Of a stretch of DNA of 64,000 bases, positions 4,698 through 50,316 are shown in pieces. This stretch comes from Escherichia coli (GTDB taxonomy: Bacteria; Pseudomonadota; Gammaproteobacteria; Enterobacterales; Enterobacteriaceae), in the NCBI RefSeq assembly GCF_024298765.1, contig NZ_CP101210.1, one strand, 5' to 3'. The notes under the pieces are model-generated. The model ran no database searches, was not told where the DNA came from, and was given only the letters and a program-made list of their open reading frames with translations. The translations under genes and the position numbers were made by a program. How positions within the stretch are numbered: the first letter of the stretch is position 1; every line of letters begins with the position of its first letter.

Positions 4698-5104
4698 AAA
4701 TTCGTCAGGCGCAGACCAGCGCAACCTACATTCTGCCGGACCCCGGCGAACTGAATAAACGCGTCCTGATCCGCCAGCGGGTGGATATGCCCGCGGATAA
4801 CTTTGGCGTGGAGCCTCAATACCCGGTTGCGTTCCGGGCATGGGCGAAGGTTATCCAGACCAGTGCCACCACCTGGCAGGAAACCGCGCAGACCGGAGAC
4901 GCCATCACCCATTACATCACCATTCGCTACCGCCGGGGGATCACTGCTGATTATGAGGTGGTCTGTGATGACAGTGTGTACCGGGTGAAACGTCAGCGCG
5001 ATCTGAACGGGGCGCGGCGCTTTCTGCTGCTGGAGTGTACGGAACTGGGCGAATTTACGCAGAGTCACGGAGGCAGCAATGGCGACTCCCTTTTTTCACG
5101 TTGA
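4694..5104 (+). CDS. Head closure / head-tail adaptor protein
   Basis: 136 aa ORF coupled to neighbours by overlapping stop/start; position in head-completion block. Confidence 0.6.
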   Translation: MKIRQAQTSATYILPDPGELNKRVLIRQRVDMPADNFGVEPQYPVAFRAWAKVIQTSATTWQETAQTGDAITHYITIRYRRGITADYEVVCDDSVYRVKRQRDLNGARRFLLLECTELGEFTQSHGGSNGDSLFSR

Positions 5105-5585
5105 TGTTCAGCAGCCCGCGGAGATGCGCTTTAACCGCGCCCGTGTCCGGCGGGCGTTTGTCACGATTGGGCAGCGTCATATGCGTGATGCCCGTCGGCT
5201 GGTGATGCGCCGTGCGCGGTCGGCACCGGGTGAAAACCCCGGTTATCAGACCGGACGCCTGGCTCGTTCGATTGGTTACATGGTGCCGAGAGCCAGTAAA
5301 AAGCGAGCCGGTTTTATGACACGCATTGCCCCTAACCAGCGCAACGGGAAGGGGAACCGGATGATCTCTGGTGACTTCTATCCGGCGTTTCTGTTTTTTG
5401 GTGTCCGGGGAGGAGCAAAACGTCGTCGTAGTCATCATCGTGGTGCATCCGGTGGCAGCGGCTGGCGGCTGGCTCCACGTAATAACTTTATGGTGGAAAC
5501 GCTTGAAAAGAACCGCAGCTGGACACGCTATTTTCTGGCGCGGGAATTGCGTAAATCACTGAAGCCGGAGCGACGACACAGATGA
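5079..5585 (+). CDS. Neck/tail-completion protein (HK97 gp10-like)
   Basis: 168 aa basic protein in the head-tail joining block. Confidence 0.5.
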   Translation: MATPFFHVDVQQPAEMRFNRARVRRAFVTIGQRHMRDARRLVMRRARSAPGENPGYQTGRLARSIGYMVPRASKKRAGFMTRIAPNQRNGKGNRMISGDFYPAFLFFGVRGGAKRRRSHHRGASGGSGWRLAPRNNFMVETLEKNRSWTRYFLARELRKSLKPERRHR

Positions 5586-6142
5586 AACTGACGCCTGTTA
5601 TTGCTGCGCTGCGTGCCCGCTGCCCGTATTTTGAAAACCGGGTGGCAGGCGCGGCACAGTTCAAAAATCTGCCGGAGGTCGGAAAGCTGAGACTCCCGGC
5701 GGCGTATGTGGTACCGGGTGATGACTCTCCGGGAGAAAACAAAAGCCAGACCGACTACTGGCAGGAGCTGAAAGAGGGCTTCTCCGTGGTTGTCATACTG
5801 AGTAACGGGCGTGATGAGCGCGGTCAGTTTGCCTCGTATGATGTGGTGGACGATGTCCGGCAGATGCTCTTTAAGGCTCTGCTGGGCTGGAACCCGGAAG
5901 CGTGCGGTAACCCGATTACCTATGACGGCGGCACGCTGCTGGATCTGAATCGTCATGAGCTGATTTATCAGTTCGATTTTTCGGTCATCAGCGAGCTGAC
6001 CGAAGACGATACCCGCCAGCAGGATGACCTGAACAGTCTGGATGAACTGCGAACGCTGGCGATTGATGTTGATTATCTCGATCCCGGTAACGGGCCTGAC
6101 GGCGATATCGAACATCACACCGAAATAACCCTTCCTTCCTGA
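5582..6142 (+). CDS. Tail-completion/terminator-like protein (Mu gp37-like position)
   Basis: 186 aa ORF overlapping upstream stop; precedes tail sheath gene. Confidence 0.45.
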   Translation: MKLTPVIAALRARCPYFENRVAGAAQFKNLPEVGKLRLPAAYVVPGDDSPGENKSQTDYWQELKEGFSVVVILSNGRDERGQFASYDVVDDVRQMLFKALLGWNPEACGNPITYDGGTLLDLNRHELIYQFDFSVISELTEDDTRQQDDLNSLDELRTLAIDVDYLDPGNGPDGDIEHHTEITLPS

Positions 6143-6150
6143 GAATCTTC

Positions 6151-6321
6151 ATGTTTGTGAAACCTGTTAAAGGGCGGTCAGTTCCTGACCCTGCCCGCGG
6201 TGACCTTTTGCCCGCCGAGGGGCGAAATGTTGATGAGAACAACTACTGGCTGCGCCGTGAAGCAGCGGGTGATATCCGGCGCGTGAATGAAAAGGTGAAT
6301 ACCGATGACGATAAGCTTTAA
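6151..6321 (+). CDS. Small conserved phage protein upstream of tail sheath (56 aa)
   Basis: ATG at 6151, translation MFVKPVKGRSVPDPARGDLLPAEGRNVDENNYWLRREAAGDIRRVNEKVNTDDDKL; overlaps sheath start; not in ORF track (under 60 aa). Confidence 0.4.
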   Translation: MFVKPVKGRSVPDPARGDLLPAEGRNVDENNYWLRREAAGDIRRVNEKVNTDDDKL

Positions 6322-7801
6322 CACCATTCCGTCGAATACGCTGGTTCCGATTTTTTATGCGGAAATGGATAACCAGGCGGCGAATACTGCACAGGACAGC
6401 GGAGCATCGCTGCTGATTGGTCATGCCAATAACGGTGCAGAGATTGTTGCCAACAGTCTGGTGCTGATGCCATCGGCAGACTATGCACGCCAGATTTGTG
6501 GTGCGGGAAGTCAGCTGGCGCGTATGGTCGAGGCTTATCGCCAGACCGACCCGTTTGGTGAACTGTATGTGATTGCCGTTCCTGAATCCACGGGCGCGGC
6601 GGCAACAGTTACGCTGACGGTGACCGGCGCGGCAACCGAAACCGGCACGGTGAATGTTTATGTGGGACGTACCCGCGTGCAGGCTCCGGTGACCAACGGC
6701 GATAACGTCACGACGATTGCCAGCAGTATCCAGGATGCCATCAATGCCGTTCCGGCCCTGCCGTTTACGGCTTCATCTTCGGCAGGCGTGGTCACACTGA
6801 CCGCGCGTCATAAGGGGCTTTGCGGGAATGAAATTCCTGTCAGCCTCAATTACTACGGCTTTGGTGGGGGCGAAGTGCTGCCAGCGGGCGTACAGATTGC
6901 CGTGGCGACGGGGACCGCCGGTACGGGTGCTCCGGTTCTCACCGGCGCGGTGGCTGCAATGGCGGATGAGCCGTTTGATTATATCGGCCTGCCGTTCAAC
7001 GACACGGCCTCCGTTAACACGCTGGTGACCGAGATGAACGATACCAGCGGTCGCTGGAGCTATGCGCGTCAGCTGTATGGTCATGTGTATACGGCAAAGA
7101 TCGGCACGCTGTCAGAACTGGTGACCGCAGGTGACCAGTTTAACCAGCAGCACATTACCCTGGCGGGATACGAAAAAGAGACCCAGACGCCTGCCGACGA
7201 GCTGGCGGCAAGCCGTACCGCCCGCGCAGCGGTGTTTATTCGCAACGATCCGGCACGTCCCACGCAGACCGGTGAGCTGGTGGGTATGCTGCCTGCGCCG
7301 AAGGGGAAACGGTTCACGATGACTGAACAACAGACCCTGCTGTCTCATGGCGTGGCAACGGCGTATGTCGAAAGTGGGGTGCTGCGCATTCAGCGTGATG
7401 TCACCACGTACAGGAAAAACGCTTACGGTGTTGCGGATAACAGCTACCTCGACAGCGAGACGCTGCATACCAGTGCGTATGTACTGCGCAAACTGAAATC
7501 CGTCATTACCAGTAAGTACGGGCGTCACAAGCTTGCCAGCGACGGTACCCGCTTTGGTCCCGGTCAGGCGATTGTCACCCCGGCGGTGATCAAAGGGGAA
7601 CTGCTGGCAACCTACCGTCAGCTTGAGCGTGCGGGGATCGTGGAAAACTACGAACTGTTCAAGCAGTACCTGGTTGTGGAGCGTGATGCCAGCGATCCGA
7701 ACCGCCTGAACACGCTGTTCCCGCCTGACTATGTTAACCAGTTGCGTGTCTTTGCCGTGGTTAACCAGTTCCGTCTTCAGTATTCAGAGGAGTCTGCATA
7801 A
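6305..7801 (+). CDS. Tail sheath protein (contractile tail, Mu-like)
   Basis: 498 aa; followed by tube, chaperone with frameshift, and tape measure in the canonical myovirus order. Confidence 0.85.
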   Translation: MTISFNTIPSNTLVPIFYAEMDNQAANTAQDSGASLLIGHANNGAEIVANSLVLMPSADYARQICGAGSQLARMVEAYRQTDPFGELYVIAVPESTGAAATVTLTVTGAATETGTVNVYVGRTRVQAPVTNGDNVTTIASSIQDAINAVPALPFTASSSAGVVTLTARHKGLCGNEIPVSLNYYGFGGGEVLPAGVQIAVATGTAGTGAPVLTGAVAAMADEPFDYIGLPFNDTASVNTLVTEMNDTSGRWSYARQLYGHVYTAKIGTLSELVTAGDQFNQQHITLAGYEKETQTPADELAASRTARAAVFIRNDPARPTQTGELVGMLPAPKGKRFTMTEQQTLLSHGVATAYVESGVLRIQRDVTTYRKNAYGVADNSYLDSETLHTSAYVLRKLKSVITSKYGRHKLASDGTRFGPGQAIVTPAVIKGELLATYRQLERAGIVENYELFKQYLVVERDASDPNRLNTLFPPDYVNQLRVFAVVNQFRLQYSEESA

Positions 7802-8157
7802 TGGCCCGTATCGGGGGAACCTGTTATTTCAAAATTGACGGTCAGCAGCTATCGCTGACCGGCGGCATTGAGGTGCCCATGAACAGGATGGTTAATGATG
7901 ACATCATCGGCCTGGACGGTTCAGTGGACCGCAAGGAAACTCACCGTGCGCCTTATGTCAAAGGGACCTTCAAGGTGCCGAAGAATTTTCCGGTGGGCAA
8001 AATCACCTCGTCTGATGAGATGACAATCACTGCCGAGCTGGCGAACGGTCAGGTCTATGTACTGTCGTCTGCTTGGCTGCACGGCGAAGCGAACCATAAT
8101 GCCGAAGAAGGCACGGTCGATCTTGAGTTCCACGGTGAAGAAGGGGATTACCAGTAA
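7801..8157 (+). CDS. Tail tube protein
   Basis: 118 aa directly after sheath, start overlapping sheath stop (TAATG). Confidence 0.8.
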   Translation: MARIGGTCYFKIDGQQLSLTGGIEVPMNRMVNDDIIGLDGSVDRKETHRAPYVKGTFKVPKNFPVGKITSSDEMTITAELANGQVYVLSSAWLHGEANHNAEEGTVDLEFHGEEGDYQ

Positions 8158-8426
8158 TGAAAGAGCTTGAGTTAAAGAAACCGATTACCGCTCATGGCGA
8201 GACACTCTCCGTACTGGAGTTTGATGAGCCCACCGGGAAAGATGTCCGCGAGCTGGGGTATCCCTACCAGATGAATCAGGATGAGTCCGTCAGACTTCTG
8301 GCGCATGTGGTATCGAAATATATTGTGCGGCTGGCGAAAGTGCCGCAAAGCTCTGTCGACCAGATGTCTCCGGCAGACCTGAATGCAGCGGCGTGGCTTG
8401 TGGCTGGTTTTTTCCTCCAGGCCTGA
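8157..8426 (+). CDS. Tail assembly chaperone (short form)
   Basis: 89 aa ORF immediately before tape measure; ends just after a T-TTT-TTC slippery heptamer. Confidence 0.7.
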   Translation: MKELELKKPITAHGETLSVLEFDEPTGKDVRELGYPYQMNQDESVRLLAHVVSKYIVRLAKVPQSSVDQMSPADLNAAAWLVAGFFLQA

Positions 8427-8575
8427 CGGCTGAATACCTTACTGATCGCTTCTTTGATTGCGCCAGCTACTGGCGCATTAATCCTTTCGAATTGCTGAAT
8501 ATGCCGATCAGTGAAATTCCCTTGCTGGTCAGTCAGGCAAACAGGATAGAGCAGGAGAAACGCACACATGGCTGA
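8393..8575 (+). CDS. -1 frame extension of tail assembly chaperone (programmed frameshift product, long form 8157..8575)
   Basis: ORF in the -1 frame overlaps the chaperone 3' end; slippery heptamer T_TTT_TTC at 8408..8414; extension ends overlapping the tape measure start. Confidence 0.5.
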   Translation: MACGWFFPPGLTAEYLTDRFFDCASYWRINPFELLNMPISEIPLLVSQANRIEQEKRTHG

Positions 8576-15464: not shown

Positions 15465-16115
15465 ATGCATCGTATAGACACGAAAACCGCGCAGAAGGAT
15501 AAGTTCGGCGCGGGTAAGAACGGTTTTACCCGTGGTAACCCCCAGACCGGCACGCCTGCCACCGATCTGGATGATGACTACTTTGACATGTTGCAGGAGG
15601 AGCTTTGCAGCGTTGTGGAGGCGTCCGGTGCCAGCCTGGAGAAGGGGCGGCACGACCAGCTGCTTACCGCGCTTCGTGCGCTGCTGTTAAGCCGCAAGAA
15701 TCCGTTTGGTGATATCAAATCGGATGGCACGGTGAAAACGGCTCTCGAAAACCTTGGTTTGGGAGAAGCGGCGAAAAGGGATGTGGGCACAGGAGAAAAT
15801 CAGATACCGGATATGTCAGCCTGGAAAAGAAATCCGAGTTCTAATCGCTGGAGAAAATTGCCTGATGGAACCATCATTCAAATGGGAATATCAGCATCAG
15901 GGCCATTAGGCTCACCTGTAAATATCACCCTGCCGATATCTTTCAGCAATACCAATTATTGTGTTGTTGCATCGTACGATAATGCACGGTCAGGTGTGTC
16001 AACAATGGTTAGTTTTGCAGCGTTACCTGTTTCACCATCGCAATTTTCCCTGATGTCATCTGTGACTGAGCAAGGAATAAATCCTTTTGCTTACTGGATT
16101 GCTTTTGGAGATTAA
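15465..16115 (+). CDS. Side tail fibre protein (constant N-terminus fused to currently expressed variable C-terminus)
   Basis: 216 aa; invertase crossover site lies inside the gene at 15742..15767 (codons for LENLGLGE); sequence after the site is noticeably more AT-rich. Confidence 0.75.
15742..15767. repeat. Invertase crossover site (left), gix/pix-like 26-bp site
   Basis: CTCTCGAAAACCTTGGTTTGGGAGAA; its 14-bp arm TTGGTTTGGGAGAA is the exact inverted copy of 17607..17620. Confidence 0.6.
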
Positions 16116-16118
16116 TAA

Positions 16119-16538
16119 ATGGATAGATACTTCTATTCACAAAAAGAAAATGGTTTTTTTACCGATTTAAATAAAGCACCTTCAGATGCTGTTGAGATAA
16201 CCACGGATGAATGGCTGTTACTACTGGATGGTCAGGATAATGGCATGAAAATAGTCAGCAATCAGGAGGGATATCCGGTTTTGACAGAGCAACCACCTTT
16301 ATCAAAAGAAAACCTTATTGCATTGGCGGATTTGAAAAAAAGAAAACTTATTAATGAAGCCAACGAGCACATGAACAGCAGACAATGGCCAGGTAAAGCG
16401 GCGATTGGTCGCCTGAAAGGTGAGGAACTGGCGCAATATAATTTGTGGCTGGATTATCTGGACGCACTGGAACTGGTCGATACTTCCGGTGCGCCAGATA
16501 TTGAATGGCCTACGCCTCCGGCAGTTCAGGCCAGATGA
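16119..16538 (+). CDS. Tail fibre assembly protein (expressed orientation)
   Basis: 139 aa directly after the fibre gene; AT-rich like the expressed fibre C-terminus. Confidence 0.75.
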   Translation: MDRYFYSQKENGFFTDLNKAPSDAVEITTDEWLLLLDGQDNGMKIVSNQEGYPVLTEQPPLSKENLIALADLKKRKLINEANEHMNSRQWPGKAAIGRLKGEELAQYNLWLDYLDALELVDTSGAPDIEWPTPPAVQAR

Positions 16539-17115
16539 CGTCCGGCGCGGTGCTGGTATCTGTTGCCGTCACCGCGTCAATGTAATCCAGCACAGCGTTA
16601 AGTCGGGTGTTTTCTGTCTGCATCAGCTTCCGCCCGGCCTGCAATTTCAGTTGAATCAGACTAATGGAAGCCATTGCAGTATCAATCAGTGACTGACGCT
16701 GTGCTTCTGCCGCGTCTACTGCGGCGCTATGCTGTGCCTCAGTATCGGTCACCCATTTCTCACCATCCCATTTATCGTATGGCGTTAATGGGGCGATAGT
16801 GGTTGTATTTTCAGGGTAATCACCCGGAACTGTGATTTCTTTGGTATCTCCCGTTTCGGTACTATAGACAACTTCACCGCGATGGTCTGGCACATATTCC
16901 CATGAATTTAAATCTACAGAGCGACAGATTGCATAACCAGCTTTATGTGTACCTGGTGCATCCAAACAGGAACATGCCGGGATACCGACGCCGACAGCGA
17001 GATATTCAGTTGATGTAGAAATATATTCCCGCGTTTCACCATCATAATTATAAACGGTAATATCTCCCGCTTTTATGGCAATGAGTTCGCTATTTAATAC
17101 AGCTTTATTCATCAT
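16510..17115 (-). CDS. Tail fibre assembly protein (alternative, expressed after inversion)
   Basis: 201 aa on opposite strand, converging on and overlapping the 3' end of the other assembly gene. Confidence 0.75.
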   Translation of the reverse strand: MMNKAVLNSELIAIKAGDITVYNYDGETREYISTSTEYLAVGVGIPACSCLDAPGTHKAGYAICRSVDLNSWEYVPDHRGEVVYSTETGDTKEITVPGDYPENTTTIAPLTPYDKWDGEKWVTDTEAQHSAAVDAAEAQRQSLIDTAMASISLIQLKLQAGRKLMQTENTRLNAVLDYIDAVTATDTSTAPDVIWPELPEA

Positions 17116-17632
17116 GCGGCCCTCACAATATAATTAAAAGCGATGTTACGAGGACGAGTTTCTGTACCTACATTTTCACTAATTTCACCATAACGTTTAA
17201 CACTACGAGAGCTAATAGCTCGTAGTGAGGAAGGCACCTTAAGACCGGGTTCGTCCGTTTTAACTATTCCCCCGTCACCGTATGTAGCCAGTATTCCTGG
17301 GTTTACTCCTTCCCGTGCACTTCCTGCGGCGAGTCCGTCCCCTGTCCATAATTCCATATAGTGTGCATGGTCCAAAATTGTGTGTGGCTGCCAATTAAGC
17401 AAAGCGCGACCAGTATCAATCCCGCGACCGTCATCCCAGCCACGAATAAATTCACCGCGTAAATCAGGCAATTTATTGGTCGGGTAAGCCTTTGCCAGTT
17501 CCGGGTATTCTTCAGCAGAAAAAGCCGCACCGTTGCATTTCAGCCAGCCTGTTGGCGGAGTGGCGGAAGGCCACGGAACAGGCACACCAACGGGTAATGC
17601 CGAACCTTCTCCCAAACCAACGTTTATGAAAA
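17112..17632 (-). CDS. Alternative tail-fibre variable C-terminal segment (silent in this orientation)
   Basis: Minus-strand ORF 17112..17660 reads through the right crossover site; contains the conserved fibre motif PWPSATPPTGWLKCNGAAF...YPELAKAYP; would fuse to the constant N-terminus on inversion. Confidence 0.65.
17607..17632. repeat. Invertase crossover site (right), gix/pix-like 26-bp site
   Basis: TTCTCCCAAACCAACGTTTATGAAAA, about 55 bp upstream of the invertase start. Confidence 0.6.
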
Positions 17633-17686
17633 TGCAGAAATAACGAGCAAATGGCATCATTCCTGCTTTTGTCAGGGAGATCTACC

Positions 17687-18241
17687 ATGCTTATTGGCTA
17701 TGTACGTGTGTCAACAAATGACCAGAACACAGATCTACAGCGTAATGCGCTGAACTGTGCAGGATGCGAGCTGATTTTTGAAGACAAGATAAGCGGTACA
17801 AAGTCTGAAAGGCCGGGACTGAAAAAACTGCTCAGGACATTATCGGAAGGTGACACTCTGGTTGTCTGGAAGCTGGATCGGCTGGGGCGTAGTATGCGGC
17901 ATCTGGTCATTCTGGTTGAGGAGTTGCGCGAACGTGGCGTTAATTTTCGCAGCCTGACGGATGCTATTGATACCAGCACACCGATGGGGCGTTTTTTCTT
18001 TCATGTGATGGGTGCCCTAGCTGAAATGGAACGAGAACTGATTGTTGAACGAACAAAAGCTGGACTGGAAGCTGCTCGCGCACAGGGACGAATTGGTGGA
18101 CGTCGTCCCAAACTTACACCAGAACAATGGGCGCAGGCTGGGCGATTAATTGCATCAGGCGTTCCTCGCCAGAAGGTGGCGATCATCTATGATGTTGGTA
18201 TATCGACACTGTATAAGAAGTTTTCGGTCGGAGATAAATGA
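17687..18241 (+). CDS. pin: Serine DNA invertase, Pin/Gin/Cin family
   Basis: MLIGYVRVSTNDQ active-site serine motif at N-terminus, C-terminal HTH; very close to e14 PinE as recalled; ATG at 17687 inside ORF-track 17651..18241. Confidence 0.9.
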   Translation: MLIGYVRVSTNDQNTDLQRNALNCAGCELIFEDKISGTKSERPGLKKLLRTLSEGDTLVVWKLDRLGRSMRHLVILVEELRERGVNFRSLTDAIDTSTPMGRFFFHVMGALAEMERELIVERTKAGLEAARAQGRIGGRRPKLTPEQWAQAGRLIASGVPRQKVAIIYDVGISTLYKKFSVGDK

Positions 18242-18298: not shown

Positions 18299-19117
<819 letters not shown>

Positions 19118-19478
19118 TCATTGCAAGGGCTCACAACCAGTAGTGTTGAGAAAACCATCGGAGAAATGAGGCTAAGCCTTTGAATTTACATAGTACAAAA
19201 AAGATACTTTTCCTCATAATGTGAGCTAATTTTATGTTTCGTTTGATGATTGGACCGGTCTCGAAAACCGTAGACACATAGTATGCGTTAATTTATGAAC
19301 AAACTACTTGTCTGCTGTTTTTCTGTCATTAGTCGTATATAGAATGATTCTCTATGCCTAACAAAGCATCACCAGTGCTAGATTACGTTGTAGTCACTGT
19401 TTAAATATCCAGATAAAACATTTCCTTCTGGGTTGAATGAGTGATAAAGTTTCACCCATTAGACCCCTTGGAGGAATT

Positions 19479-20912
19479 ATGTCTGAATTTGAAGTGTTGG
19501 CACAGCATCTGCTGAAGGAAGCCGAGGCGGAAGAAAAGCTGCGACAGGAAAATGATAAAAAGCTTATCGAGAAAGTGCTGGAAATCTATGATCAGAAGTA
19601 TGTGGCTGAATTACTGAGAAAAGTCGGAAAAAATGAGTGGAGCCGTGAAACCATTAACCGCTGGATTAATGGCAAGTGTTTACCAAAATCGTTGACTTCA
19701 GTAGAAGAGTCTCTTCTGCGTAAGATGCTACCAGAACCACCTGCAAACCATCCGGAATATGCTTTCCGCTTCATTGACTTATTTGCTGGAATTGGAGGGA
19801 TACGGAAAGGTTTTGAGGCCATTGGAGGCCAGTGTGTTTTTACCAGTGAATGGAATAAAGATGCTGTGCGTACATACAAGGCCAACTGGTTTAACGATGA
19901 ACAGGTGCATAAATTCAATCTCGATATTCGGGAAGTCACGCTGAGTGATAAAACCGATGTATTGGAAACGGATGCTTATGCATATATTGATGAGCATGTG
20001 CCGGATCATGATGTGCTTCTTGCGGGGTTCCCGTGCCAGCCATTTAGCCTTGCTGGTGTTAGTAAGAAAAACTCACTTGGTCGTGCGCATGGTTTTGAAT
20101 GTGAAGCACAAGGAACACTTTTTTTTGACGTGGCACGTATTATACGAGCAAAAAAACCGGCAATTTTTGTGCTGGAAAATGTCAAAAATCTGAAGAGCCA
20201 TGATAAGGGTAAAACTTTCAAAGTCATTATGGAGACCCTTGACGAGCTGGGCTACGAAGTTGCCGATGCTGCAGAAATGGGAAAAAACGATCCAAAGATT
20301 ATCGATGGGAAGCATTTTTTGCCTCAGCATCGTGAACGCATTGTTCTGGTCGGATTTAGACGAGATCTGAATATTCACAAGGGGTTTACCTTGCGTGATA
20401 TCAGTCGTTTTTATCCGGAACACCGCCCATCATTTGGTGAATTGCTGGAGCCTGTAGTCGACAGTAAATATATACTTACGCCAAAACTATGGGAGTACCT
20501 TTATAACTACGCCAAAAAGCATGCAGCCAAGGGGAATGGTTTTGGCTTTGGGTTGGTCAATCCTGAGAATAAGGAAAGCATTGCACGCACACTTTCTGCC
20601 AGATATCACAAAGACGGATCAGAAATTCTTATTGATCGTGGTTGGGATATGGCAACGGGAGAGGCTGACTTTATGAATGAGAGTAATCAGGCTCGTCGAC
20701 CACGCAGGCTGACTCCCCGAGAGTGCGCACGCCTTATGGGATTTGAAAAACCTGGAGGGAAACCATTCCGTATTCCGGTTTCAGATACTCAGTCATATCG
20801 GCAGTTCGGTAACTCAGTTGTGGTGCCAGTATTTGAAGCTGTTGCCAGACTTCTGGAACCCTATATCCTCAAAGCTGTTTCTGCTGATGCTGGTAAGACT
20901 GGGCAGCCTTGA
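19479..20912 (+). CDS. ecoRIIM: DNA cytosine-5 methyltransferase, M.EcoRII/Dcm type (predicted CCWGG)
   Basis: C5-MTase motifs [10 protein letters not shown] (I), [11 protein letters not shown] (IV), ENVKNL (VI), [10 protein letters not shown] (X); N-terminus [12 protein letters not shown] resembles M.EcoRII; 477 aa from ATG at 19479 with GGAGG RBS. Confidence 0.9.
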
Positions 20913-20918
20913 GAACAT

Positions 20919-20941
20919 CTCCCGGCCTTTTAAGCCGGGAG
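20919..20941. terminator. Bidirectional hairpin between convergent methyltransferase and endonuclease genes
   Basis: CTCCCGGC-CTTTTAA-GCCGGGAG, 8-bp stem, located in the 34-bp gap between the two stop codons. Confidence 0.5.
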
Positions 20942-20946
20942 TCAGC

Positions 20947-22161
20947 CTATGATAGTTCAGCGTAAAGCTCTATCAGCTCAGTAATGAATGCTCCGAGCGT
21001 TATTAATTCTTCTCTAACTGCTTCTGGGTATTTTTTATGTAAAGTTGATGGTACAACGAGTCTGACACCCGCATCTTTCATTTCTCGGTATTGTGCTGAA
21101 GAAACACCTTCTTGCAGTGTAAATAAATGTACCTGATGGATTTTATCTGCTTCATTCAGTATCTGACGCCAGCGATCTTTGCAGGTGGTCTTTACTGCCA
21201 GCATACGTAAGTTTTCTACAGGAAATTCAACGTTATGATATGCCTCTGCTGAAGGAAACAGGAAATCTGGTTTTTTATTACCTTCAGTAACTGCCTGAGT
21301 GGAGAAATGCCGTAGTCCGTGCTCGATAAAAAGCTTCTCTAGGTGAAGTTCAAGTGATTTGCCTGCCCTTGATTTACGTCGATTACTGACAGAGTTGGCT
21401 AATGCAATAAACTCATCTACAGAATCGAATCCTTTCTTAATAATATCAAGAACATGTAATTCCTCGACGAGTAGAAAAATATCATACTCGACACGCCGAC
21501 GGTCAATCAGTTGCTCATCTGGATCCTTGGAGTTTTTAGCATAATGGCCAGCAGCATATTGAATAATTTCGTTTCCAGAAGGAAAACGCTTCTTCCAGTC
21601 TTCAGGAATAACATATTTATGATTTACTGGAGTTTGCTGAAGAGACAATCCGCCCAAAATTTGTCCGGCAGGGCCGGAAATTAGGGTTCCAGGTATGATT
21701 TCGCCAATAGCAGACTCGATGATATCCTCTTCATCGGGATTGACGCAGACCCATATATCTACCTCGGAACAGTCAGTGTTCTGTTCGTTTAACCTGAAAG
21801 CAAGAATTGTGAGGGCTCCTGTATTTTCAGGGTTCTGTAATGGACTTCCTCTCCCCCAGCGCGTAATTCTTTTTTCGTTTCGGGTCTTACCAAAATAACG
21901 GTTGTTGTAATAAATTGCGCGTGCTTGGGTATCAGGGCAATCATGGGATGATACATGCGCAGTAAGGAAGACTGAAGGGTTCAGTTCGCGAGTATGATTG
22001 ATAGATGGAAAAAGCTTTTCAACGATATTTGAGGGGATATAAAGTCCGACCTGATGGCCACCTGTTGCGCCTGTGTCGTTTGCAGAAAGGCGTTTGATGT
22101 AGATAAAGTAATTCCCGCTTGCGATATCAAGCAGCCAGTTATGAAAAACCGACATATACAT
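20947..22161 (-). CDS. ecoRIIR: Type IIE restriction endonuclease, EcoRII-like
   Basis: 404 aa, same length as EcoRII; N-terminus MSVFHNWLLDIASGNYFIYIKRLSANDTGATGGHQVGLYIP closely matches EcoRII as recalled; convergent with the methyltransferase. Confidence 0.9.
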   Translation of the reverse strand: MYMSVFHNWLLDIASGNYFIYIKRLSANDTGATGGHQVGLYIPSNIVEKLFPSINHTRELNPSVFLTAHVSSHDCPDTQARAIYYNNRYFGKTRNEKRITRWGRGSPLQNPENTGALTILAFRLNEQNTDCSEVDIWVCVNPDEEDIIESAIGEIIPGTLISGPAGQILGGLSLQQTPVNHKYVIPEDWKKRFPSGNEIIQYAAGHYAKNSKDPDEQLIDRRRVEYDIFLLVEELHVLDIIKKGFDSVDEFIALANSVSNRRKSRAGKSLELHLEKLFIEHGLRHFSTQAVTEGNKKPDFLFPSAEAYHNVEFPVENLRMLAVKTTCKDRWRQILNEADKIHQVHLFTLQEGVSSAQYREMKDAGVRLVVPSTLHKKYPEAVREELITLGAFITELIELYAELS

Positions 22162-22389: not shown

Positions 22390-22752
22390 TGGTGGAGCTG
22401 GCGGGAGTTGAACCCGCGTCCGAAATTCCTACATCCTCGGTACTACATGCTTAGTCAGTCTTTACATTCGCTTGCCAGCTGCGGACGGACACGCCACTAA
22501 CAAACTAGCCTGATTAAGTTTTAACGCTTCAACCCCAGGCAGGGCTTCCACGCGATCTCTTTTGGGTTTGACCTCTCTTGATCCCCGTCCTAAGAGCGGA
22601 GGCTAGGGAGAGAGGGCTCTAAGCAGGTTATTAAGCTGCTAAAGCGTAGTTTTCGTCGTTTGCGACTATTTTTTGCGGCTTTTTACGAGGCCAACCGCCC
22701 CTCGGCATGCACCTTGGGTTTCGCAAATCCCGTCGAATCCAGAATCAGCCCC
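22390..22752 (-). ncRNA. ssrA: tmRNA (SsrA), 363 nt
   Basis: Reverse complement matches E. coli tmRNA from GGGGCUGAUUCUGGAUUCGACGGG to CCAGCUCCACCA; tag reading frame encodes ANDENYALAA. Confidence 0.95.
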
Positions 22753-22966
22753 AATGTGTAACGGTAAGTATACCAGATTCATGAGTGCCATGACCAGCCT
22801 CAATGGCGTTATCGTTAAAGATTTAGCACCCATGTAGCCTGATTTTTATTCGATTAAGCAATGGGATGGCAACATTTGGGTCGGATGTGATAGCCAATAA
22901 GATGTGCATTCGCGCCGCCGGAGAGGGAGGCGCGGTGAGGAGCGGATCAATAATTGCAGTGCAGGT

Positions 22967-23449
22967 TTAACGGTGGGCGTTTTTCATGATACGCGCTTTA
23001 TCCACCTGCCATTCGCGTTCTTTGATATCTGAACGTTTATCATGCTGTTTCTTACCTTTGGCGACGCCGATTTTCACTTTGCACCAGGCATTTTTCCAGT
23101 ACAGGGAGAGCGCCACTACGGTATAGCCTTCTCGATTGACGCGACCGTACAATGAGTCCAGTTCGCGCTGGTTGAGAAGTAACTTGCGGGTACGGGTAGG
23201 ATCGCACACCACATGCGTGGAGGCCACAGCCATTGGCGTGATGTTAGCGCCAAACAGAAATGCCTCTCCGTCACGCAGAAGGACGTAGCTGTCGCTGATA
23301 TTGGCTTTTCCTGCACGCAGGGATTTAACCTCCCAGCCTTGCAGGGCAAGTCCCGCCTCGAACTCTTCTTCGATAAAGTATTCGTGCCGGGCGCGCTTGT
23401 TAAGCGCGATGGTCGCTGAACCAGGTTTATGTGCTTTTTTCTTCGTCAT
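22967..23449 (-). CDS. smpB: SsrA-binding protein SmpB
   Basis: 160 aa, matches SmpB; adjacent to ssrA. Confidence 0.95.
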
Positions 23450-40620: not shown

Positions 40621-40651
40621 CAATAAAAAAGGCCCCCCGATTTGGGAGGCC
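40621..40651 (-). promoter_or_regulatory. pheA attenuator terminator hairpin
   Basis: GGCCTCCCAAATCGGGGGGCC followed by U-run on the minus strand, between pheL and pheA. Confidence 0.6.
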
Positions 40652-40699
40652 TTATTGTTCGTCTTCGCATTCTGTTTCACACGACGAAACGCCTCCCAT

Positions 40700-40747
40700 T
40701 CAGGGGAAGGTAAAAAAGAATGCGAAGAAAAACGGTGTGTGTTTCAT
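40700..40747 (-). CDS. pheL: pheA leader peptide, MKHTPFFFAFFFTFP
   Basis: 15-codon Phe-rich ORF (7 Phe) directly upstream of the attenuator. Confidence 0.8.
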   Translation of the reverse strand: MKHTPFFFAFFFTFP

Positions 40748-40850
40748 GTTTGTTTCCTTAAGTGACTTTAGTACAGTACCCGTACTGTTTTCACGCTGTC
40801 AACAAAAAACGCGCCCGAAGGCGCGTTGGCGATACACTCAATATAAAGGA

Positions 40851-41246
<396 letters not shown>

Positions 41247-41439
41247 TCAAAATGTGTGATGGAAATCTCATAATTTTGTCACTTTTTGTCAACGAATCTT
41301 TTTTGTGAGAAATCGCAGGAAGAGGTGTTTTTTTACTTGAGGAATATCTCAAAGCGAGCCATATTTGATGAGATCGATAGTGACTAAATCGCTTCAGTTT
41401 CACAACTAACAGAATAAAAAAACGGCAGCTCAAGGGCTG

Positions 41440-42866
41440 TAATGCCGATCAGTTAAGCAACTGACTGGCTCTTTTTCGGGGCTGTGGGGTATTTCCAGGG
41501 CCTCTCCTTTACCACTCTCGGGAAGGCCCTTTCCCTTCTTGTCGGTAATTTCACAAGTTGTCCCATACTTGCAAGATCGCGCATCAGCTCCGGTATACGT
41601 CCCGGTGAAGCGCCCTGCAATGTCATCAGCATTCTCATCACCATTCCGCATGATTCTGAGAAACTCAGTTGATTCGGCCAGTAACCTTTCAGATGTTCCG
41701 CCATTTTAATCATCTGATATCTCACCAGATTATAAGCCAGTAAGACACCCCACAGCTCTTGCTCCACAAGCTCCGGCTTTTTACTTCTCAGCGTCAGCCT
41801 GCTCAGTTGCATCGTCTGTTTTATCTCCCTGTATCCCAGTTCGATTTCCCAGCGATGACTGTACAGATCCGCCATTTCTCCTCCGGGGAAGCGCATGGCG
41901 TCCGTCATCGACGTCAGCAGATGGCAGACTTTTCCTTTGCGCGTCACGGTCAGCAGGCGGGCTGTCACTTCATTTCCCAGTCCCGGCCACTTTTTTCGTG
42001 CCTGCGGGCTGGTTTTCAGCTTCACCAGATGATCGCCTTTACCCAGTTTTCTGATCTCTTCATATTGCGCTCCCTTTCTGAGAGGTATCATCCAGTGGCG
42101 GTGTTCTCCCGCCAGGCTCCAGGCATTTAACAGTCCCAGTGAGTAATAACCTTTATCCATTAACGTCAGAGTGTTATCGCCGGTTTGTTCTATAAGTTGC
42201 TCAGCAAGCTCATTTTCGCTGTTCTTCATCGTGCCGAAGGCTGCAGCCGTCAGCAGATGGCTGGTCAGTTCCATCTGGCAGACCATTTTGACCTGCGGGT
42301 AGAGCGCCGGGTTCCCGTCATGTGTCTGGCGGGGGAAGGCTGCATCGTTCTCTGGTGTATCCGGTGTGCGCCAGAACACACCATCGATGGCCAGCAGGGT
42401 CAGGCCGCACCAGTGCGGATGCGGCGTGGCGTTATGCCAGAGCTGCGCTGTTTTCGTGAACACGCGGCGGACAGCCTCACTTCCCAGGCGCTGGCGGGCC
42501 TGAATAACGGCACTGGGGGGCAACGAAGGGGCGATTGCCCGGCAGCATGATGTCCAGGCGATTCACAATCTGGTGAAGAGGTTCTTTACGCTCAAGCGCC
42601 ATGCCAACAATACACCAGACCATCATTTCGAGGGGAAGACGGCGCTTGCGTAGCGTTACAGTACCTGATTCGGCAAGGCAACGAGAGATGAGTTCGGGGT
42701 CGAGGTAATCCCCCAGAGAAGTCAGTGGGTTACGCAGAGAATCGTAACGGGATACCAGATCAAGAGCCTGTCCAATGTGCATAAAAAAATCCGGAAACAA
42801 GTGAGCGTTTCCGGATTCTTACACAGCCACTGGATCGGTCAACTGATCCTTAACTGATCGGCATTA
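41440..42866 (-). mobile_element. IS4 insertion sequence (1427 bp) with perfect 18-bp terminal inverted repeats
   Basis: TAATGCCGATCAGTTAAG at 41440..41457 and its reverse complement at 42849..42866; flanked by direct repeat CAGCTCAAGGGCTG (41426..41439 and 42867..42880). Confidence 0.85.
41453..42800 (-). pseudogene. insG: IS4 transposase, interrupted by a frameshift near 42515..42520
   Basis: Two overlapping ORFs (42477..42800 and 41453..42523) together match IS4 transposase; a six-C run on the coding strand (six G at 42515..42520) puts the N-terminal 107 aa out of frame. Confidence 0.8.
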
Positions 42867-42903
42867 CAGCTCAAGGGCTGCCGTTTTGTGTTTCAGGTTT
42901 CTG

Positions 42904-43641
42904 TTATGTATTGCTGCTGTTTGCGGCGATGATTTTCGCTACTTTTTCAGCTTGCGCATTCAACTGCATCTGACGGTATGCATTTTCCATCAGCGGCAGC
43001 GCATCACGCGTAGCCTGGGTATCCGGGTAGTCGCGCAACATGCCTTCTACGCGGTTAACGACGGCAACCCATGCACCACGTTCTGTATAGTACTCGGCAA
43101 CGGAGTATTCATATTTCGCCAGACGATCTTTCAGGAATACCAGACGTTTGGTGGCATCGGTGGTGTACTGACTGTTCGGATAGCCGCGCACCAGTTTGGA
43201 AAAGTCACTAAACGCAGCTCGTGCATGTTGAGGATCGCGATCGCTACGGTCAACGCCAAAGAACCCTTGCAGCGCACTGTCATCCAGCGCCATATTGGTC
43301 AGGCCACGCATGTACATGACATAATCGATATTCGGATGGGTCGGGTTAAGGCGAATAAAACGATCGATGGCAGCCTGTGCTAACGGCAAATCGGCGTTTT
43401 TATAGTAGGCGTAGATGAGATCCAGCTGCACCTGCTGCGAATACGGACCAAACGGATAGCGATTATCTAACGCTTCCAGTTGCGTTATTGCCTGTCTCCA
43501 GTTACCGTCCTGCAGCTTTTGTTGTGCAGTCGCGTAAATTTCATTTGGCGGATTATCAGGTACTTCTTCCTTTGACCCCGAGCAACCCGCCAAAAACAGG
43601 CTTAGTGTGGCGGCTGCCACCAGATATTTCATGCGCGTCAT
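42904..43641 (-). CDS. bamD: Outer membrane assembly lipoprotein BamD
   Basis: 245 aa, lipobox LAGCS. Confidence 0.95.
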
Positions 43642-43775
43642 GACGTTTTGACTTTCCTCAAAATGTAATACGGGAGATTCTCTGTTCCTGCTCCCGGTTA
43701 AGACCAGCTACAATAGCACACTATATTAAACGGCAAAGCCGTAAAACCCCAACGATAAACGAAGAAGCAGTATAT

Positions 43776-44756
43776 ATGGCACAACGAGTACAGCTCACTG
43801 CAACGGTGTCCGAAAACCAACTCGGTCAACGCTTAGATCAGGCTTTGGCCGAAATGTTCCCGGATTATTCACGTTCGCGAATAAAAGAATGGATCCTCGA
43901 CCAGCGCGTGCTGGTTAACGGCAAAGTTTGTGATAAGCCGAAAGAAAAAGTATTGGGTGGCGAGCAGGTGGCCATCAACGCTGAGATTGAAGAAGAAGCG
44001 CGTTTTGAACCGCAGGATATCCCGCTGGATATCGTCTATGAAGATGAAGATATCATCGTCATTAATAAACCACGCGACCTGGTGGTACATCCTGGCGCGG
44101 GTAACCCGGATGGTACGGTACTGAATGCGTTGCTTCATTATTATCCGCCCATTGCCGATGTACCGCGTGCGGGCATCGTCCATCGTCTGGATAAAGACAC
44201 CACCGGCCTGATGGTTGTGGCAAAAACCGTTCCGGCTCAGACGCGTTTAGTCGAATCTTTGCAACGGCGTGAAATTACTCGTGAGTATGAAGCGGTGGCA
44301 ATTGGTCATATGACCGCTGGCGGTACAGTAGATGAACCAATCAGCCGCCACCCGACCAAACGTACTCACATGGCGGTGCATCCGATGGGTAAACCGGCGG
44401 TCACTCACTATCGCATCATGGAACACTTCCGTGTGCACACGCGTCTGCGGTTGCGTCTGGAAACCGGACGTACGCACCAGATCCGCGTGCATATGGCCCA
44501 TATCACTCATCCGCTGGTGGGCGATCCGGTTTATGGTGGCCGTCCGCGTCCGCCAAAAGGTGCTTCGGAAGCGTTTATCTCCACGCTGCGTAAGTTTGAC
44601 CGCCAGGCGCTTCATGCAACCATGCTGCGTCTTTATCACCCGATCTCCGGTATCGAAATGGAATGGCATGCGCCTATTCCAGAAGATATGGTGGAGCTGA
44701 TTGAGGTGATGCGCGCCGATTTCGAAGAGCATAAGGATGAAGTGGACTGGTTATGA
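43776..44756 (+). CDS. rluD: 23S rRNA pseudouridine synthase RluD
   Basis: 326 aa, S4 domain N-terminus and RluA-family core. Confidence 0.95.
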   Translation: MAQRVQLTATVSENQLGQRLDQALAEMFPDYSRSRIKEWILDQRVLVNGKVCDKPKEKVLGGEQVAINAEIEEEARFEPQDIPLDIVYEDEDIIVINKPRDLVVHPGAGNPDGTVLNALLHYYPPIADVPRAGIVHRLDKDTTGLMVVAKTVPAQTRLVESLQRREITREYEAVAIGHMTAGGTVDEPISRHPTKRTHMAVHPMGKPAVTHYRIMEHFRVHTRLRLRLETGRTHQIRVHMAHITHPLVGDPVYGGRPRPPKGASEAFISTLRKFDRQALHATMLRLYHPISGIEMEWHAPIPEDMVELIEVMRADFEEHKDEVDWL

Positions 44757-45484
44757 GTAAGCTGATTGTCCCGCAGTGGCCGCTGCCAAAAGGTGTTGCG
44801 GCCTGTAGCTCCACTCGTATCGGCGGCGTGAGCTTGCCCCCGTATGATTCGCTCAACCTCGGTGCTCATTGTGGCGATAACCCGGATCACGTTGAAGAGA
44901 ATCGCAAGCGACTTTTTGCTGCGGGCAATTTGCCTTCAAAACCGGTCTGGCTTGAGCAGGTACACGGCAAAGATGTGCTTAAGCTTACTGGCGAACCTTA
45001 TGCCTCAAAACGAGCAGATGCCTCTTATAGCAACACGCCGGGCACGGTTTGCGCAGTGATGACTGCCGACTGCCTCCCCGTGCTGTTTTGCAATCGAGCG
45101 GGAACGGAAATCGCCGCCGCTCATGCTGGCTGGCGTGGACTGTGCTCAGGCGTGCTGGAAGAGACGGTTTCCTGTTTTGCTGATAATCCGGAAAATATTC
45201 TCGCCTGGTTAGGGCCGGCAATTGGTCCACGCGCGTTTGAAGTGGGGGCGGAGGTTCGCGAGGCGTTTATGGCAGTAGACGCCAAAGCGAGTACAGCTTT
45301 CATTCAGCATGGTGATAAGTATCTGGCAGATATTTATCAGCTTGCCCGGCAGCGTCTGGCGAGCGTTGGTGTTGAACAAATTTTCGGCGGCGACCGTTGT
45401 ACATATACGGAAAATGAGACTTTCTTCTCTTATCGTCGCGACAAGACCACCGGTCGTATGGCAAGTTTCATTTGGCTGATATAA
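44753..45484 (+). CDS. yfiH: YfiH (PgeF) purine nucleoside phosphorylase / laccase-domain protein
   Basis: 243 aa, overlaps rluD stop. Confidence 0.9.
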   Translation: MSKLIVPQWPLPKGVAACSSTRIGGVSLPPYDSLNLGAHCGDNPDHVEENRKRLFAAGNLPSKPVWLEQVHGKDVLKLTGEPYASKRADASYSNTPGTVCAVMTADCLPVLFCNRAGTEIAAAHAGWRGLCSGVLEETVSCFADNPENILAWLGPAIGPRAFEVGAEVREAFMAVDAKASTAFIQHGDKYLADIYQLARQRLASVGVEQIFGGDRCTYTENETFFSYRRDKTTGRMASFIWLI

Positions 45485-45546
45485 CCTAAAGAATCAAGAC
45501 GATCCGGTACGCGTGATTTTCTTTTCACATTAATCTGGTCAATAAC

Positions 45547-45576
45547 CTTGAATAATTGAGGGATGACCTCATTTAA
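45547..45576 (+). promoter_or_regulatory. sigma32 heat-shock promoter of clpB
   Basis: CTTGAAT (-35) and CCTCATTTAA (-10-like) upstream of clpB. Confidence 0.5.
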
Positions 45577-45613
45577 TCTCCAGTAGCAACTTTGATCCGT
45601 TATGGGAGGAGTT

Positions 45614-48187: not shown

Positions 48188-48301
48188 TGATAAAACGAGC
48201 CCTTCGGGGCTCGTTTTTGTCTATAAATTAGACGGAAAAGGCTATGTTTAAGATGTTTTGCCTGAAAAATGAGCGAACGATAAAGTTTTTATATTTTTTG
48301 C

Positions 48302-48629: not shown

Positions 48630-50171
<1,542 letters not shown>

Positions 50172-50239: not shown

Positions 50240-50316
<77 letters not shown>

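What the first reader, a model, noticed from the sequence alone, without database searches (positions are those of the whole stretch)
6151..6321. Small conserved ORF immediately upstream of the tail sheath gene
A 56-aa ORF missed by the size cutoff fills the gap between 6142 and the sheath start and overlaps the sheath start codon. I recall similar short proteins upstream of the sheath in Mu-type tail clusters, but function is unknown.
Basis: partly seen in the sequence, partly recalled or inferred. Interest (0 to 1): 0.2.

Follow-up and report, generated by a model that had tools for sequence, protein, structure and literature searches.

The report
Mu gp38-like small tail gene (DUF2635)
This is a real but already annotated 56-codon phage gene, the counterpart of phage Mu gp38 (family DUF2635), lying between the tail-terminator and tail-sheath genes of an SfV-like prophage; its protein is made and co-purifies with contractile tail particles, but its exact job is still not known.

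Summary
The ORF at 6151-6321 (+) exists exactly as described: 56 codons, starting 8 nt after the tail-terminator stop and overlapping the sheath start by 17 nt. It is SfV orf10, a homologue of Mu gp38. It matches Pfam DUF2635 (61.7 bits, cut-off 26.6) and PHROG 208. PGAP annotates it routinely, and the region occurs in about 20% of complete E. coli genomes. The frame is under purifying selection (dN/dS about 0.1-0.3). In loci picked by terminator homology, 57 of 63 Mu-type tail modules carry it just upstream of the sheath gene. Headless Pseudomonas Rp4 tailocins keep it, and published proteomics of two tailocin preparations found it at 88-93% sequence coverage. It has a 43-residue alpha/beta core (AlphaFold pLDDT above 95) and a variable flexible tail. 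About 7% of relatives extend the tail with fn3, PKD or larger domains and sit next to fibre or lectin genes. My best guess (about 0.45) is a small accessory subunit that docks on the contractile tail, probably at the head-proximal end. The main rival (about 0.3) is a transient sheath or terminator assembly factor. Mu cryo-EM did not resolve gp38. Verdict: ordinary, already known, function still open.

The parts
6151..6321 (+). Protein-coding gene for a 56-aa DUF2635 protein (SfV orf10 / Mu gp38 homologue), stop codon included
   Evidence: ORF and translation. Pfam DUF2635 at 61.7 bits against a cut-off of 26.6. PHROG 208. Annotated in SfV and in E. coli RefSeq genomes. dN/dS about 0.1-0.3.
6151..6279 (+). 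Conserved core, residues 1-43: a small alpha/beta domain (strand 2-5, short strands, helix 31-39, strand 42-45). W33 is invariant; P5, G8, D13, P14, G24, V27, R35 and R36 are at least 90% conserved.
   Evidence: 120-sequence alignment A1. AlphaFold2 model: mean pLDDT 88, core blocks 95-97.
6280..6318 (+). Variable, charged C-terminal tail (residues 44-56), predicted flexible. In relatives this position carries Lys/Glu/Pro/Ala-rich tails or added fn3/PKD/larger domains.
   Evidence: pLDDT falls to 81 and then 52 over the last two blocks. The alignment shows no conservation after column 43. Long forms.
6143..6150 (+). 8-nt spacer between the terminator stop (TGA 6140-6142) and the ORF start. Only a weak Shine-Dalgarno-like GAG lies upstream, so translation is probably coupled to the terminator gene (inferred).
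   Evidence: Sequence. No promoter- or terminator-like site in between.
6292..6321 (+). 3' end of the ORF. It holds the sheath gene's Shine-Dalgarno-like AAGGTG (6292-6297) and start codon (6305); the two genes overlap over 6305-6321.
   Evidence: The same tight junction recurs in relatives: a 4-nt overlap in Mu, and the DUF2635 stop lies next to or overlaps the sheath start in related loci.
5582..6142 (+). Tail terminator gene (SfV orf9, counterpart of Mu K/gp37), the upstream neighbour and one candidate docking partner
   Evidence: Pfam PF23840, E 2e-26. Alignment with Mu gp37 and 14 others.
6305..7801 (+). Tail sheath gene (SfV orf11, counterpart of Mu L/gp39), the downstream neighbour and the other candidate partner
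   Evidence: Pfam Phage_sheath_1, Phage_sheath_1C and Phage_sheath_domII.

Best explanation
Shown: the ORF is the DUF2635 gene of an SfV-like myovirus prophage (SfV orf10, Mu gp38). It is a genuine, translated late gene belonging to the contractile-tail module. Inferred mechanism: it is read from the tail operon directly after the terminator gene and hands ribosomes on to the sheath gene. Its 43-residue alpha/beta core would act as a docking domain that binds the assembled tail. The most likely site is the head-proximal end, around the terminator hexamer and the last sheath ring, with a short charged tail left exposed. In relatives the same core carries Ig-like (fn3, PKD) or larger domains, so the short form looks like the bare anchor of a modular tail or neck accessory protein. 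It would be a small, probably low-copy and loosely ordered accessory subunit. It works on the tail itself, not in head joining or DNA packaging. The confidence given (0.45) is for the inferred mechanism; the identity of the gene is near certain.
For: Identity: Pfam and PHROG hits, 42% identity to Mu gp38, public annotation. Real protein: purifying selection and a confident fold. Tail-intrinsic role: the head-less tailocin cluster of P. fluorescens Q8r1-96 keeps terminator, DUF2635 and sheath, and all 12 strains listed with Rp4 (SfV-like) tailocin genes in Carim et al. 2021 keep the orthogroup. The functional R-syringacin lacks all head genes but retains the SfV-like tail genes. Physical association: in material precipitated at 30% ammonium sulfate, the homologue had 93.3% coverage and NSAF 0.026 in Pse04, against 0.0177 for the terminator. 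In Pse05 it had 88.3% coverage, second highest in that sample, and NSAF 0.0106 against 0.0059 for the terminator. Anchor idea: the core is conserved and the tail variable. Eleven of the 150 best representatives are long forms, including DUF2635-fn3 and DUF2635-PKD. Long forms sit beside discoidin, LamG, Gly-rich or fibre-region genes. In L004 the long form replaces the short one: there the terminator abuts the sheath. Neck- and fibre-like genes are inserted just upstream of DUF2635 in L097 and L131. Synteny: 57 of 63 terminator-selected modules have it directly upstream of the sheath.
Against: No experiment places the protein in a particle at a defined site. The 3.3-3.5 A Mu virion maps did not resolve gp38 (PMC11915804). 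The divergent homologue gp125 of Agrobacterium phage 7-7-1 was not among the 24 virion proteins found by MS, although its neighbours gp124, gp126 and gp127 were. The tailocin preparations were crude, and in Pse04 the gpE-like assembly chaperone was also abundant, so co-purification does not prove incorporation. Six of 63 Mu-type modules have no DUF2635 at all, and their terminators show no compensating difference. The docking partner is a guess. The one terminator-DUF2635 'fusion' (L011) is only a TGA-to-GGA point change.
Confidence: 0.45

Rival explanations
1. A transient assembly factor. The small protein is made just before the sheath subunit. It binds sheath monomers or the terminator to control polymerisation or capping (for example, preventing polysheath or helping the terminator seat), and it is not retained, or only loosely, in the finished tail.
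For: The gene junction with the sheath is invariably tight; when 3-4 kb is inserted, DUF2635 stays with the sheath and not with the terminator (L097, L131). Gp38 is absent from the Mu cryo-EM models. Gp125 was not detected in 7-7-1 virions. It is retained in tailocins. Its presence in crude tailocin precipitate alongside a known type of chaperone fits either reading.
Against: Long forms carry fn3 or PKD domains and sit with fibre or lectin genes away from the sheath. Ig-like domains are typical of virion-exposed proteins (general knowledge), not of chaperones. A free, soluble 6-7 kDa protein would not be expected to be among the best-covered proteins after a 30% ammonium sulfate cut.
Confidence: 0.3
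2. A stoichiometric sheath decoration: one copy per sheath subunit along the whole tail.
For: Translation is coupled to the most abundant tail protein. NSAF in tailocin samples is within 2-5 fold of the sheath.
Against: The Mu sheath was modelled at about 3.5 A with only gp39 and gp40 in the helical part. An abundant decoration should have been detected in the 7-7-1 virion MS, which picked up 3-4 kDa proteins. NSAF is unreliable here: the tube scores 6-10 fold below the sheath.
Confidence: 0.07
3. A gpFI/YqbF-like DNA-packaging or head-binding chaperone, as the fold resemblance suggests.
Confidence: 0.05
4. Mainly a cis-acting translational coupling ORF. What matters is that ribosomes traverse it and reach the sheath start; the peptide itself is unimportant.
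For: The 17-nt overlap, with the sheath Shine-Dalgarno site inside the ORF. The ORF's own Shine-Dalgarno site is weak.
Against: The amino-acid sequence is conserved across Proteobacteria with dN/dS of 0.1-0.3. The fold prediction is confident. The peptide is detected at about 90% coverage. Homologues exist that are not adjacent to a sheath gene.
Confidence: 0.03
5. A 'sheath terminator' in the T4 gp15 sense, as the curated Mu GenBank record tentatively names Mu_38.
For: The label 'putative sheath terminator protein' in AF083977. The position next to the terminator and sheath genes.
Against: In the Mu structure the gp37 hexamer itself caps both tube and sheath through its C-terminal hairpin, and gp38 is not seen. 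There is no sequence or fold similarity to any solved terminator. A 43-residue domain is far smaller than known sheath terminators.
Confidence: 0.05

Closest known systems
Phage Mu gp38 (Mup38; Pfam PF10948 DUF2635; PHROG 208)
   Same: Same family by HMM and 42% identity. Same size class (56 vs 67 aa). Same position between terminator (K/gp37) and sheath (L/gp39), with start/stop overlap. Function unknown in both.
   Different: The C-terminal tail is shorter and more acidic than Mu's Lys-rich tail. The head module of the host phage is HK97/SfV-type, not Mu-type.
SfV orf10 and its counterparts in SfI, SfII, SfIV, ST64B, phiP27
   Same: 98% identical protein in the SfV group, 77-85% in ST64B and phiP27. 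Identical gene order.
   Different: None of substance; this is the same gene in a related prophage. Some records (SfIV, phiP27) simply failed to annotate it.
Orthogroup OG0000019 of Pseudomonas Rp4 (SfV-like) R-tailocins (e.g. PFL_1215; EU982300 Orf10)
   Same: Homologous 60-aa protein (60% identity over the core) between terminator and sheath. The only members with protein-level evidence.
   Different: Encoded in a head-less bacteriocin cluster. The N-terminus is 4 residues longer and the tail is basic.
Lambda gpFI C-terminal domain / B. subtilis prophage YqbF N-terminal domain
   Different: No detectable sequence relationship. Different gene position. GpFI acts on heads and packaging (my own knowledge of Popovic et al. 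2012, J Biol Chem; the paper was not readable here), whereas this gene persists in head-less tailocins.
Ig-domain virion decoration or accessory proteins (Hoc-like logic)
   Same: Long DUF2635 relatives pair a small anchor with fn3 or PKD domains. This is the architecture of displayed accessory proteins.
   Different: The window protein has no Ig-like domain, only a 13-residue tail. Attachment to a virion is not demonstrated for any DUF2635 protein.

Membership tests
Pfam DUF2635 (PF10948) / PHROG 208 | HMM score above the curated gathering threshold, covering the whole model | tested here: met
   61.7 bits against a cut-off of 26.6, residues 3-47 on model positions 1-45 of 46. PHROG 208: E 3.8e-26, positions 4-59 of 64.
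Pfam DUF2635 (PF10948) / PHROG 208 | Conserved core motif (P5, G8, D13-P14, G24, V27, W33, R35-R36) | tested here: met
   All nine positions are present in the window protein and are invariant or at least 90% conserved in the 120-sequence alignment.
Mu gp38 orthologue (Mu-type tail module) | Detectable similarity to Mu gp38 | tested here: met
   tblastn gives 42.3% identity over residues 3-54, E 1e-6, to Mu, D108 and SfMu.
Mu gp38 orthologue (Mu-type tail module) | Location between the tail terminator (K-like) and sheath (L-like) genes, abutting the sheath start | tested here: met
   Window. Mu. 57 of 63 terminator-selected loci.
Virion/tailocin structural protein | Detected in purified particles | tested here: inconclusive
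   For: 88-93% coverage in two partially purified Rp4 tailocin samples. Against: not resolved in Mu virion maps; the distant homologue gp125 is absent from the 7-7-1 virion MS list. There are no data for this prophage.
Sheath terminator (T4 gp15-type; label in the Mu record AF083977) | Sequence or fold homology to known terminator or cap proteins | tested here: not met
Sheath terminator (T4 gp15-type; label in the Mu record AF083977) | Forms the ring that caps the last sheath layer | not testable with these tools
   In Mu that role is filled by the gp37 C-terminal hairpin (PMC11915804). No multimer modelling or coordinates were available here.
gpFI / YqbF-like packaging chaperone | Sequence or profile similarity to Packaging_FI (PF14000) or YqbF | tested here: not met
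   None of the 120 family members hits these Pfam families at E<=1. hhalign of A1 against a gpFI alignment gives probability 0.05% (the gpFI profile was shallow).
gpFI / YqbF-like packaging chaperone | Shared fold | tested here: inconclusive
gpFI / YqbF-like packaging chaperone | Gene next to the major capsid gene; function tied to heads | tested here: not met
   The gene lies about 1.9 kb downstream of the capsid gene, after four neck genes. It is retained in head-less tailocins.
Tail assembly chaperone (gpG/GT, P2 E/E+E', Mu gp41) | Located between the tube and tape-measure genes, with a programmed frameshift; Phage_TAC Pfam hit | tested here: not met
   That role belongs to the gene at 8157-8426 (Phage_TAC_7, E 2e-16), which has a T_TTT_TTC slippery site. 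The ORF studied here has no TAC hit.

The most novel reading that the evidence does not exclude
DUF2635 is a portable virion-docking module, possibly a remote structural relative of the gpFI-C / YqbF-N domain. Tailed phages would use it to attach accessory domains (fn3, PKD, lectin- or fibre-like) to the neck or tail. The 56-aa SfV/Mu form would be the bare plug of that system, still bound to the top of the contractile tail and still kept by tailocins. If so, the unexplained small genes next to sheath genes would mark a general attachment site that could be used to display cargo on phage tails and tailocins.
Probability: 0.25. Interest if true: 0.45.

Novelty: already known. Interest (0 to 1): 0.2.

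Why it matters
Very little hangs on it as a finding: the gene has been annotated since the SfV genome was published, and it occurs in about one in five complete E. coli genomes. It is still one of the few genes of the well-studied Mu-type contractile tail without an assigned role, alongside Mu gp35 and gp41 in the recent virion structure. It is also retained in minimal tailocin clusters that are being engineered as precision antibacterials. Knowing whether it is a structural plug, an attachment point for accessory domains or an assembly factor would complete the parts list of this tail type.

Tried and rejected
1. PDB sequence and profile searches found no homologous chain, so no solved structure contains this protein.
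2. Literature searches for 'DUF2635', 'Mup38' and 'Mu gp38' returned nothing.
3. The search for related loci with the family alignments failed for lack of a conserved 7-10-residue stretch. A consensus peptide and a terminator alignment worked instead.
4. The terminator-DUF2635 single ORF in L011 looked like a Rosetta-stone fusion, but it is a single TGA-to-GGA change relative to L012, and the intergenic hairpin and Shine-Dalgarno site are intact. I rejected it as evidence.
5. The gpFI link: I spent one homologue search on lambda FI, which returned only relatives at least 86% identical. The profile comparison was negative.
6. I compared terminators of modules with and without DUF2635, looking for a lost docking site, and found no systematic difference.
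7. I considered an AlphaFold run of a linker-fused terminator-DUF2635 or DUF2635-sheath chain. I did not run it because the tool returns no PAE or coordinates, so an interface could not be judged.
8. The antisense and overlapping ORFs in the interval (5988-6242, 6167-6424 and 6178-6327, all on the minus strand) were not pursued. The plus-strand frame explains the conservation.
9. There is no Rfam family, promoter-like or terminator-like site in the interval.

Full report
THE OBSERVATION

The window carries an ATG-initiated ORF at 6151-6321 on the plus strand (56 aa). It starts 8 nt after the TGA of the upstream gene (5582-6142) and ends 17 nt inside the downstream gene (6305-7801). Pfam identifies the neighbours as a tail terminator (PF23840, E 2e-26) and a tail sheath with three sheath domains; a tail tube gene follows.

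WHAT THE REGION IS

Window 5000-8200 is 96-98% identical at the DNA level to Shigella/E. coli phages SfV, SfI, SfII, SfIV and SKA5. In the RefSeq SfV record the ORF is orf10 (NP_599042), annotated 'DUF2635 domain-containing protein; similar to phage Mu GP38'. The same stretch occurs in 1097 of 5426 complete E. coli genomes, where PGAP annotates it as DUF2635. One 100%-identical example, strain M37H, shows a complete SfV/e14-like myovirus prophage next to ssrA. The gene is therefore already known and routinely called.

IS IT A REAL GENE?

- Family membership. Pfam DUF2635 scores 61.7 bits against a cut-off of 26.6 and covers the whole model. PHROG 208 gives E 4e-26.
- Breadth. An exhaustive phmmer search finds 252 cluster representatives at E<=1e-3. 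tblastn finds the protein in 50 phage records, including Mu, D108 and SfMu at 42% identity.
- Selection. Against 17 homologues the conserved 43 codons show pN 0.20-0.46 and pS 0.58-0.81. Where dS is not saturated, dN/dS is 0.08-0.29.
- Protein-level evidence. Carim et al. 2021 (PMC8319346) ran MudPIT on Pseudomonas tailocins. In sample Pse04 the orthologue (orthogroup OG0000019) had 93.3% sequence coverage and 69 spectra. In Pse05 it had 88.3% coverage and 38 spectra, the second-best coverage in that sample.

The coding status of the family is beyond doubt.

ANATOMY OF THE PROTEIN

A 120-sequence alignment shows a conserved core, residues 1-43, with consensus MxVKPxxGRxVPDPxxGxxLPxxGRxVxxxxYWxRRLxDGDV. 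W33 is invariant, and P5, G8, D13, P14, G24, V27, R35 and R36 are at least 90% conserved. The core is followed by an unconserved hydrophilic tail of variable length.

AlphaFold2 with this alignment gives a confident model: mean pLDDT 88, with the first four 10-residue blocks at 95-97. The fold is a small alpha/beta domain (strand 2-5, short strands, helix 31-39, strand 42-45) with a low-confidence tail.

No PDB chain is related by sequence, whether searched with the single sequence or the profile. Fold searches give only weak matches:
- In BFVD, small phage proteins annotated 'Rho termination factor N-terminal' and 'LEM-like' match at probability 0.87-0.97, with E-values of 0.27-0.37. From my own knowledge these resemble the YqbF architecture, but I did not check that with the tools. 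The 68-aa gp125 of Agrobacterium phage 7-7-1 matches at probability 0.98.

Sequence and profile tests for a gpFI/YqbF relationship were negative.

GENOMIC BEHAVIOUR

Among 30 distinct loci found with a DUF2635 consensus peptide, the short forms always lie in the order terminator, DUF2635, sheath, tube.

In an independent sample chosen by terminator homology, 57 of 63 non-redundant loci have DUF2635 immediately upstream of the sheath gene. This count includes L096, where my naive ORF caller over-extended the start. Six loci have no DUF2635 within +/-7 kb, even at E<=10, and their terminators do not differ systematically from the others.

In two loci, 3.3-4.2 kb of extra genes is inserted between the terminator and DUF2635, never between DUF2635 and the sheath:
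- L131 carries a 971-aa protein matching PHROG 'neck protein'.
- L097 carries a Gly_rich_2 protein and a match to the 'podophage fiber-tail adaptor gp77' family.

One apparent terminator-DUF2635 fusion (L011) is only a stop-codon point change and is not informative.

TAILOCINS

The P. fluorescens Q8r1-96 'prophage 01' record (EU982300) has no head, portal or neck genes. Its structural block nevertheless opens with the terminator homologue (Orf9), the DUF2635 homologue (Orf10) and the sheath.

In Carim et al., all 12 strains listed with Rp4 (SfV-like) tailocin genes have the orthogroup, placed directly after the terminator homologue; in the cluster I read (Pse01) that pair follows the holin gene directly. 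Hockett et al. 2015 show that the functional R-syringacin has lost all head and replication genes while keeping the SfV/Mu-like tail genes.

The protein's role is therefore intrinsic to the tail. This argues strongly against a head-joining or DNA-packaging function for the short forms.

LONG FORMS

Eleven of the 150 best representatives exceed 110 aa. They include DUF2635-fn3 (402 aa), DUF2635-PKD (175 aa), a 737-aa protein, and several with Pro/Ala/Glu-rich extensions. Their genes are not next to the sheath.
- L003: after a gp6-like adaptor gene and before the head-closure gene.
- L004: likewise upstream of the head-closure gene and followed by a discoidin-domain protein. In this phage the terminator abuts the sheath with no short form present.
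- L091: followed by a LamG protein.
- L092: in the fibre region downstream of a Mu gp48-like baseplate gene.
- L005: preceded by a Gly_rich_2 protein.

A small conserved N-terminal domain followed by a linker and Ig-like or lectin-type domains is the usual build of displayed virion accessory proteins (general knowledge). The replacement of the short form by a long form in L004 suggests that the two are functional equivalents.

EVIDENCE ON INCORPORATION INTO PARTICLES

This evidence is mixed.

For incorporation: the tailocin samples were made by a 30% ammonium sulfate cut, which should enrich large assemblies. In them the protein's length-normalised spectral abundance exceeded that of the terminator (0.026 vs 0.018 in Pse04; 0.0106 vs 0.0059 in Pse05).

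Against incorporation:
- The samples contained hundreds of cellular proteins, and in Pse04 the gpE-like chaperone was also abundant.
- The near-atomic Mu virion study lists gp38 as 'probably structural' but could not resolve it. It shows that the gp37 hexamer caps both tube and sheath (PMC11915804).
- In phage 7-7-1 the divergent homologue gp125 lies between the genes for 'structural protein' gp124 and sheath gp126. It was not among the 24 virion proteins detected, although 3-4 kDa proteins were.

These data argue against a one-per-sheath-subunit decoration. They are compatible with a low-copy, poorly ordered subunit or with a factor that leaves the finished particle.

MOST LIKELY MECHANISM

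What is shown is the identity of the gene, its expression, its conservation, its membership of the tail module, its independence of heads and its modular architecture. The rest is inferred.

My best reading is that the 43-residue core docks on the assembled tail and the tail end or added domains project outwards. I favour the head-proximal end, near the terminator and last sheath ring, because of the gene's position and the neck- and fibre-like genes inserted beside it. The SfV/Mu form would be the bare anchor.

I give this about 0.45. The transient sheath or terminator assembly factor gets about 0.3. Sheath decoration, gpFI-like chaperone, T4-type 'sheath terminator' and pure translational-coupling ORF share the remainder.

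COMPARISON WITH KNOWN FAMILIES, AND NOVELTY

The ORF is a full member of DUF2635 / PHROG 208 and the positional and sequence orthologue of Mu gp38. It does not meet the tested criteria for a sheath terminator, a gpFI/YqbF packaging chaperone or a tail assembly chaperone; the last of these is the gene at 8157-8426.

The finding is already known and ordinary.

Interest score: 0.2.

Noticed in passing
window 8157-8575: The tail assembly chaperone gene (8157-8426, Phage_TAC_7) is followed by a 141-nt apparent gap before the tape-measure start (8568). A T_TTT_TTC slippery heptamer at 8408-8414 and an overlapping -1 frame open to 8575 suggest a programmed -1 frameshift extension, as in P2 E/E+E' and lambda G/GT. 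Mu gp41 uses -2 according to its GenBank note.
   Followed up: partly
window 15465-18241: An invertible tail-fibre segment. 20-nt inverted repeats at 15749-15768 and 17606-17625 (95% complementary) flank alternative fibre C-termini (15465-16115 +, Gp53-like_C; 17112-17660 -, Collar domain) and two tail-fibre assembly genes. A Pin-like serine recombinase lies next to them (17651-18241, Resolvase + HTH_7).
   Followed up: partly
window 18299-22161: Defence or cargo genes at the prophage end: a LEM-3-like GIY-YIG nuclease (18299-19072, -), and an EcoRII-type restriction-modification pair consisting of a C5 cytosine methyltransferase (19437-20912, +) and an EcoRII endonuclease (20947-22161, -). 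In the matching genome M37H the same prophage also carries Kiwa (KwaA/KwaB) upstream of the part covered by the window.
   Followed up: partly
window 22390-23449: The prophage abuts the tmRNA gene ssrA (22390-22752, -; tag peptide ANDENYALAA), followed by smpB (22967-23449, -). This is a classic integration site, so the prophage's right end lies near 22.2-22.4 kb.
   Followed up: no
window 40623-53730: Ordinary host features: the Phe leader (40623-40748, -), RyfD sRNA (45495-45633, +), and a complete rrn operon (16S 48630-50171, tRNA-Ile and tRNA-Ala, 23S 50609-53514, 5S 53615-53730).
   Followed up: no
L012 3240-3304 (and L011 2436-2500): In one environmental lineage, the terminator and DUF2635 genes are separated by a GC-rich hairpin plus a T-run (CCCGCCCCGGCGGGTTTTTT) and then a strong AAGGAG Shine-Dalgarno site. 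This looks like an intrinsic terminator or attenuator inside the tail operon, unlike the 8-nt junction in the window.
   Followed up: no
L097 6434-10419; L131 4881-7796: The junction between the terminator gene and DUF2635 is a recurrent insertion point for neck- or fibre-like cargo. L131 has a 971-aa protein matching a PHROG 'neck protein' family. L097 has a Gly_rich_2 protein and a match to the podophage fibre-tail adaptor gp77 family.
   Followed up: partly
L171 4733-4939 (Agrobacterium phage 7-7-1 gp125): This 68-aa 'hypothetical protein' between gp124 and the sheath gp126 is a divergent DUF2635-like protein. Pfam misses it, but my family HMM gives E 0.017, Foldseek gives probability 0.98, and the synteny matches. 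The family is therefore broader than the Pfam model detects.
   Followed up: partly
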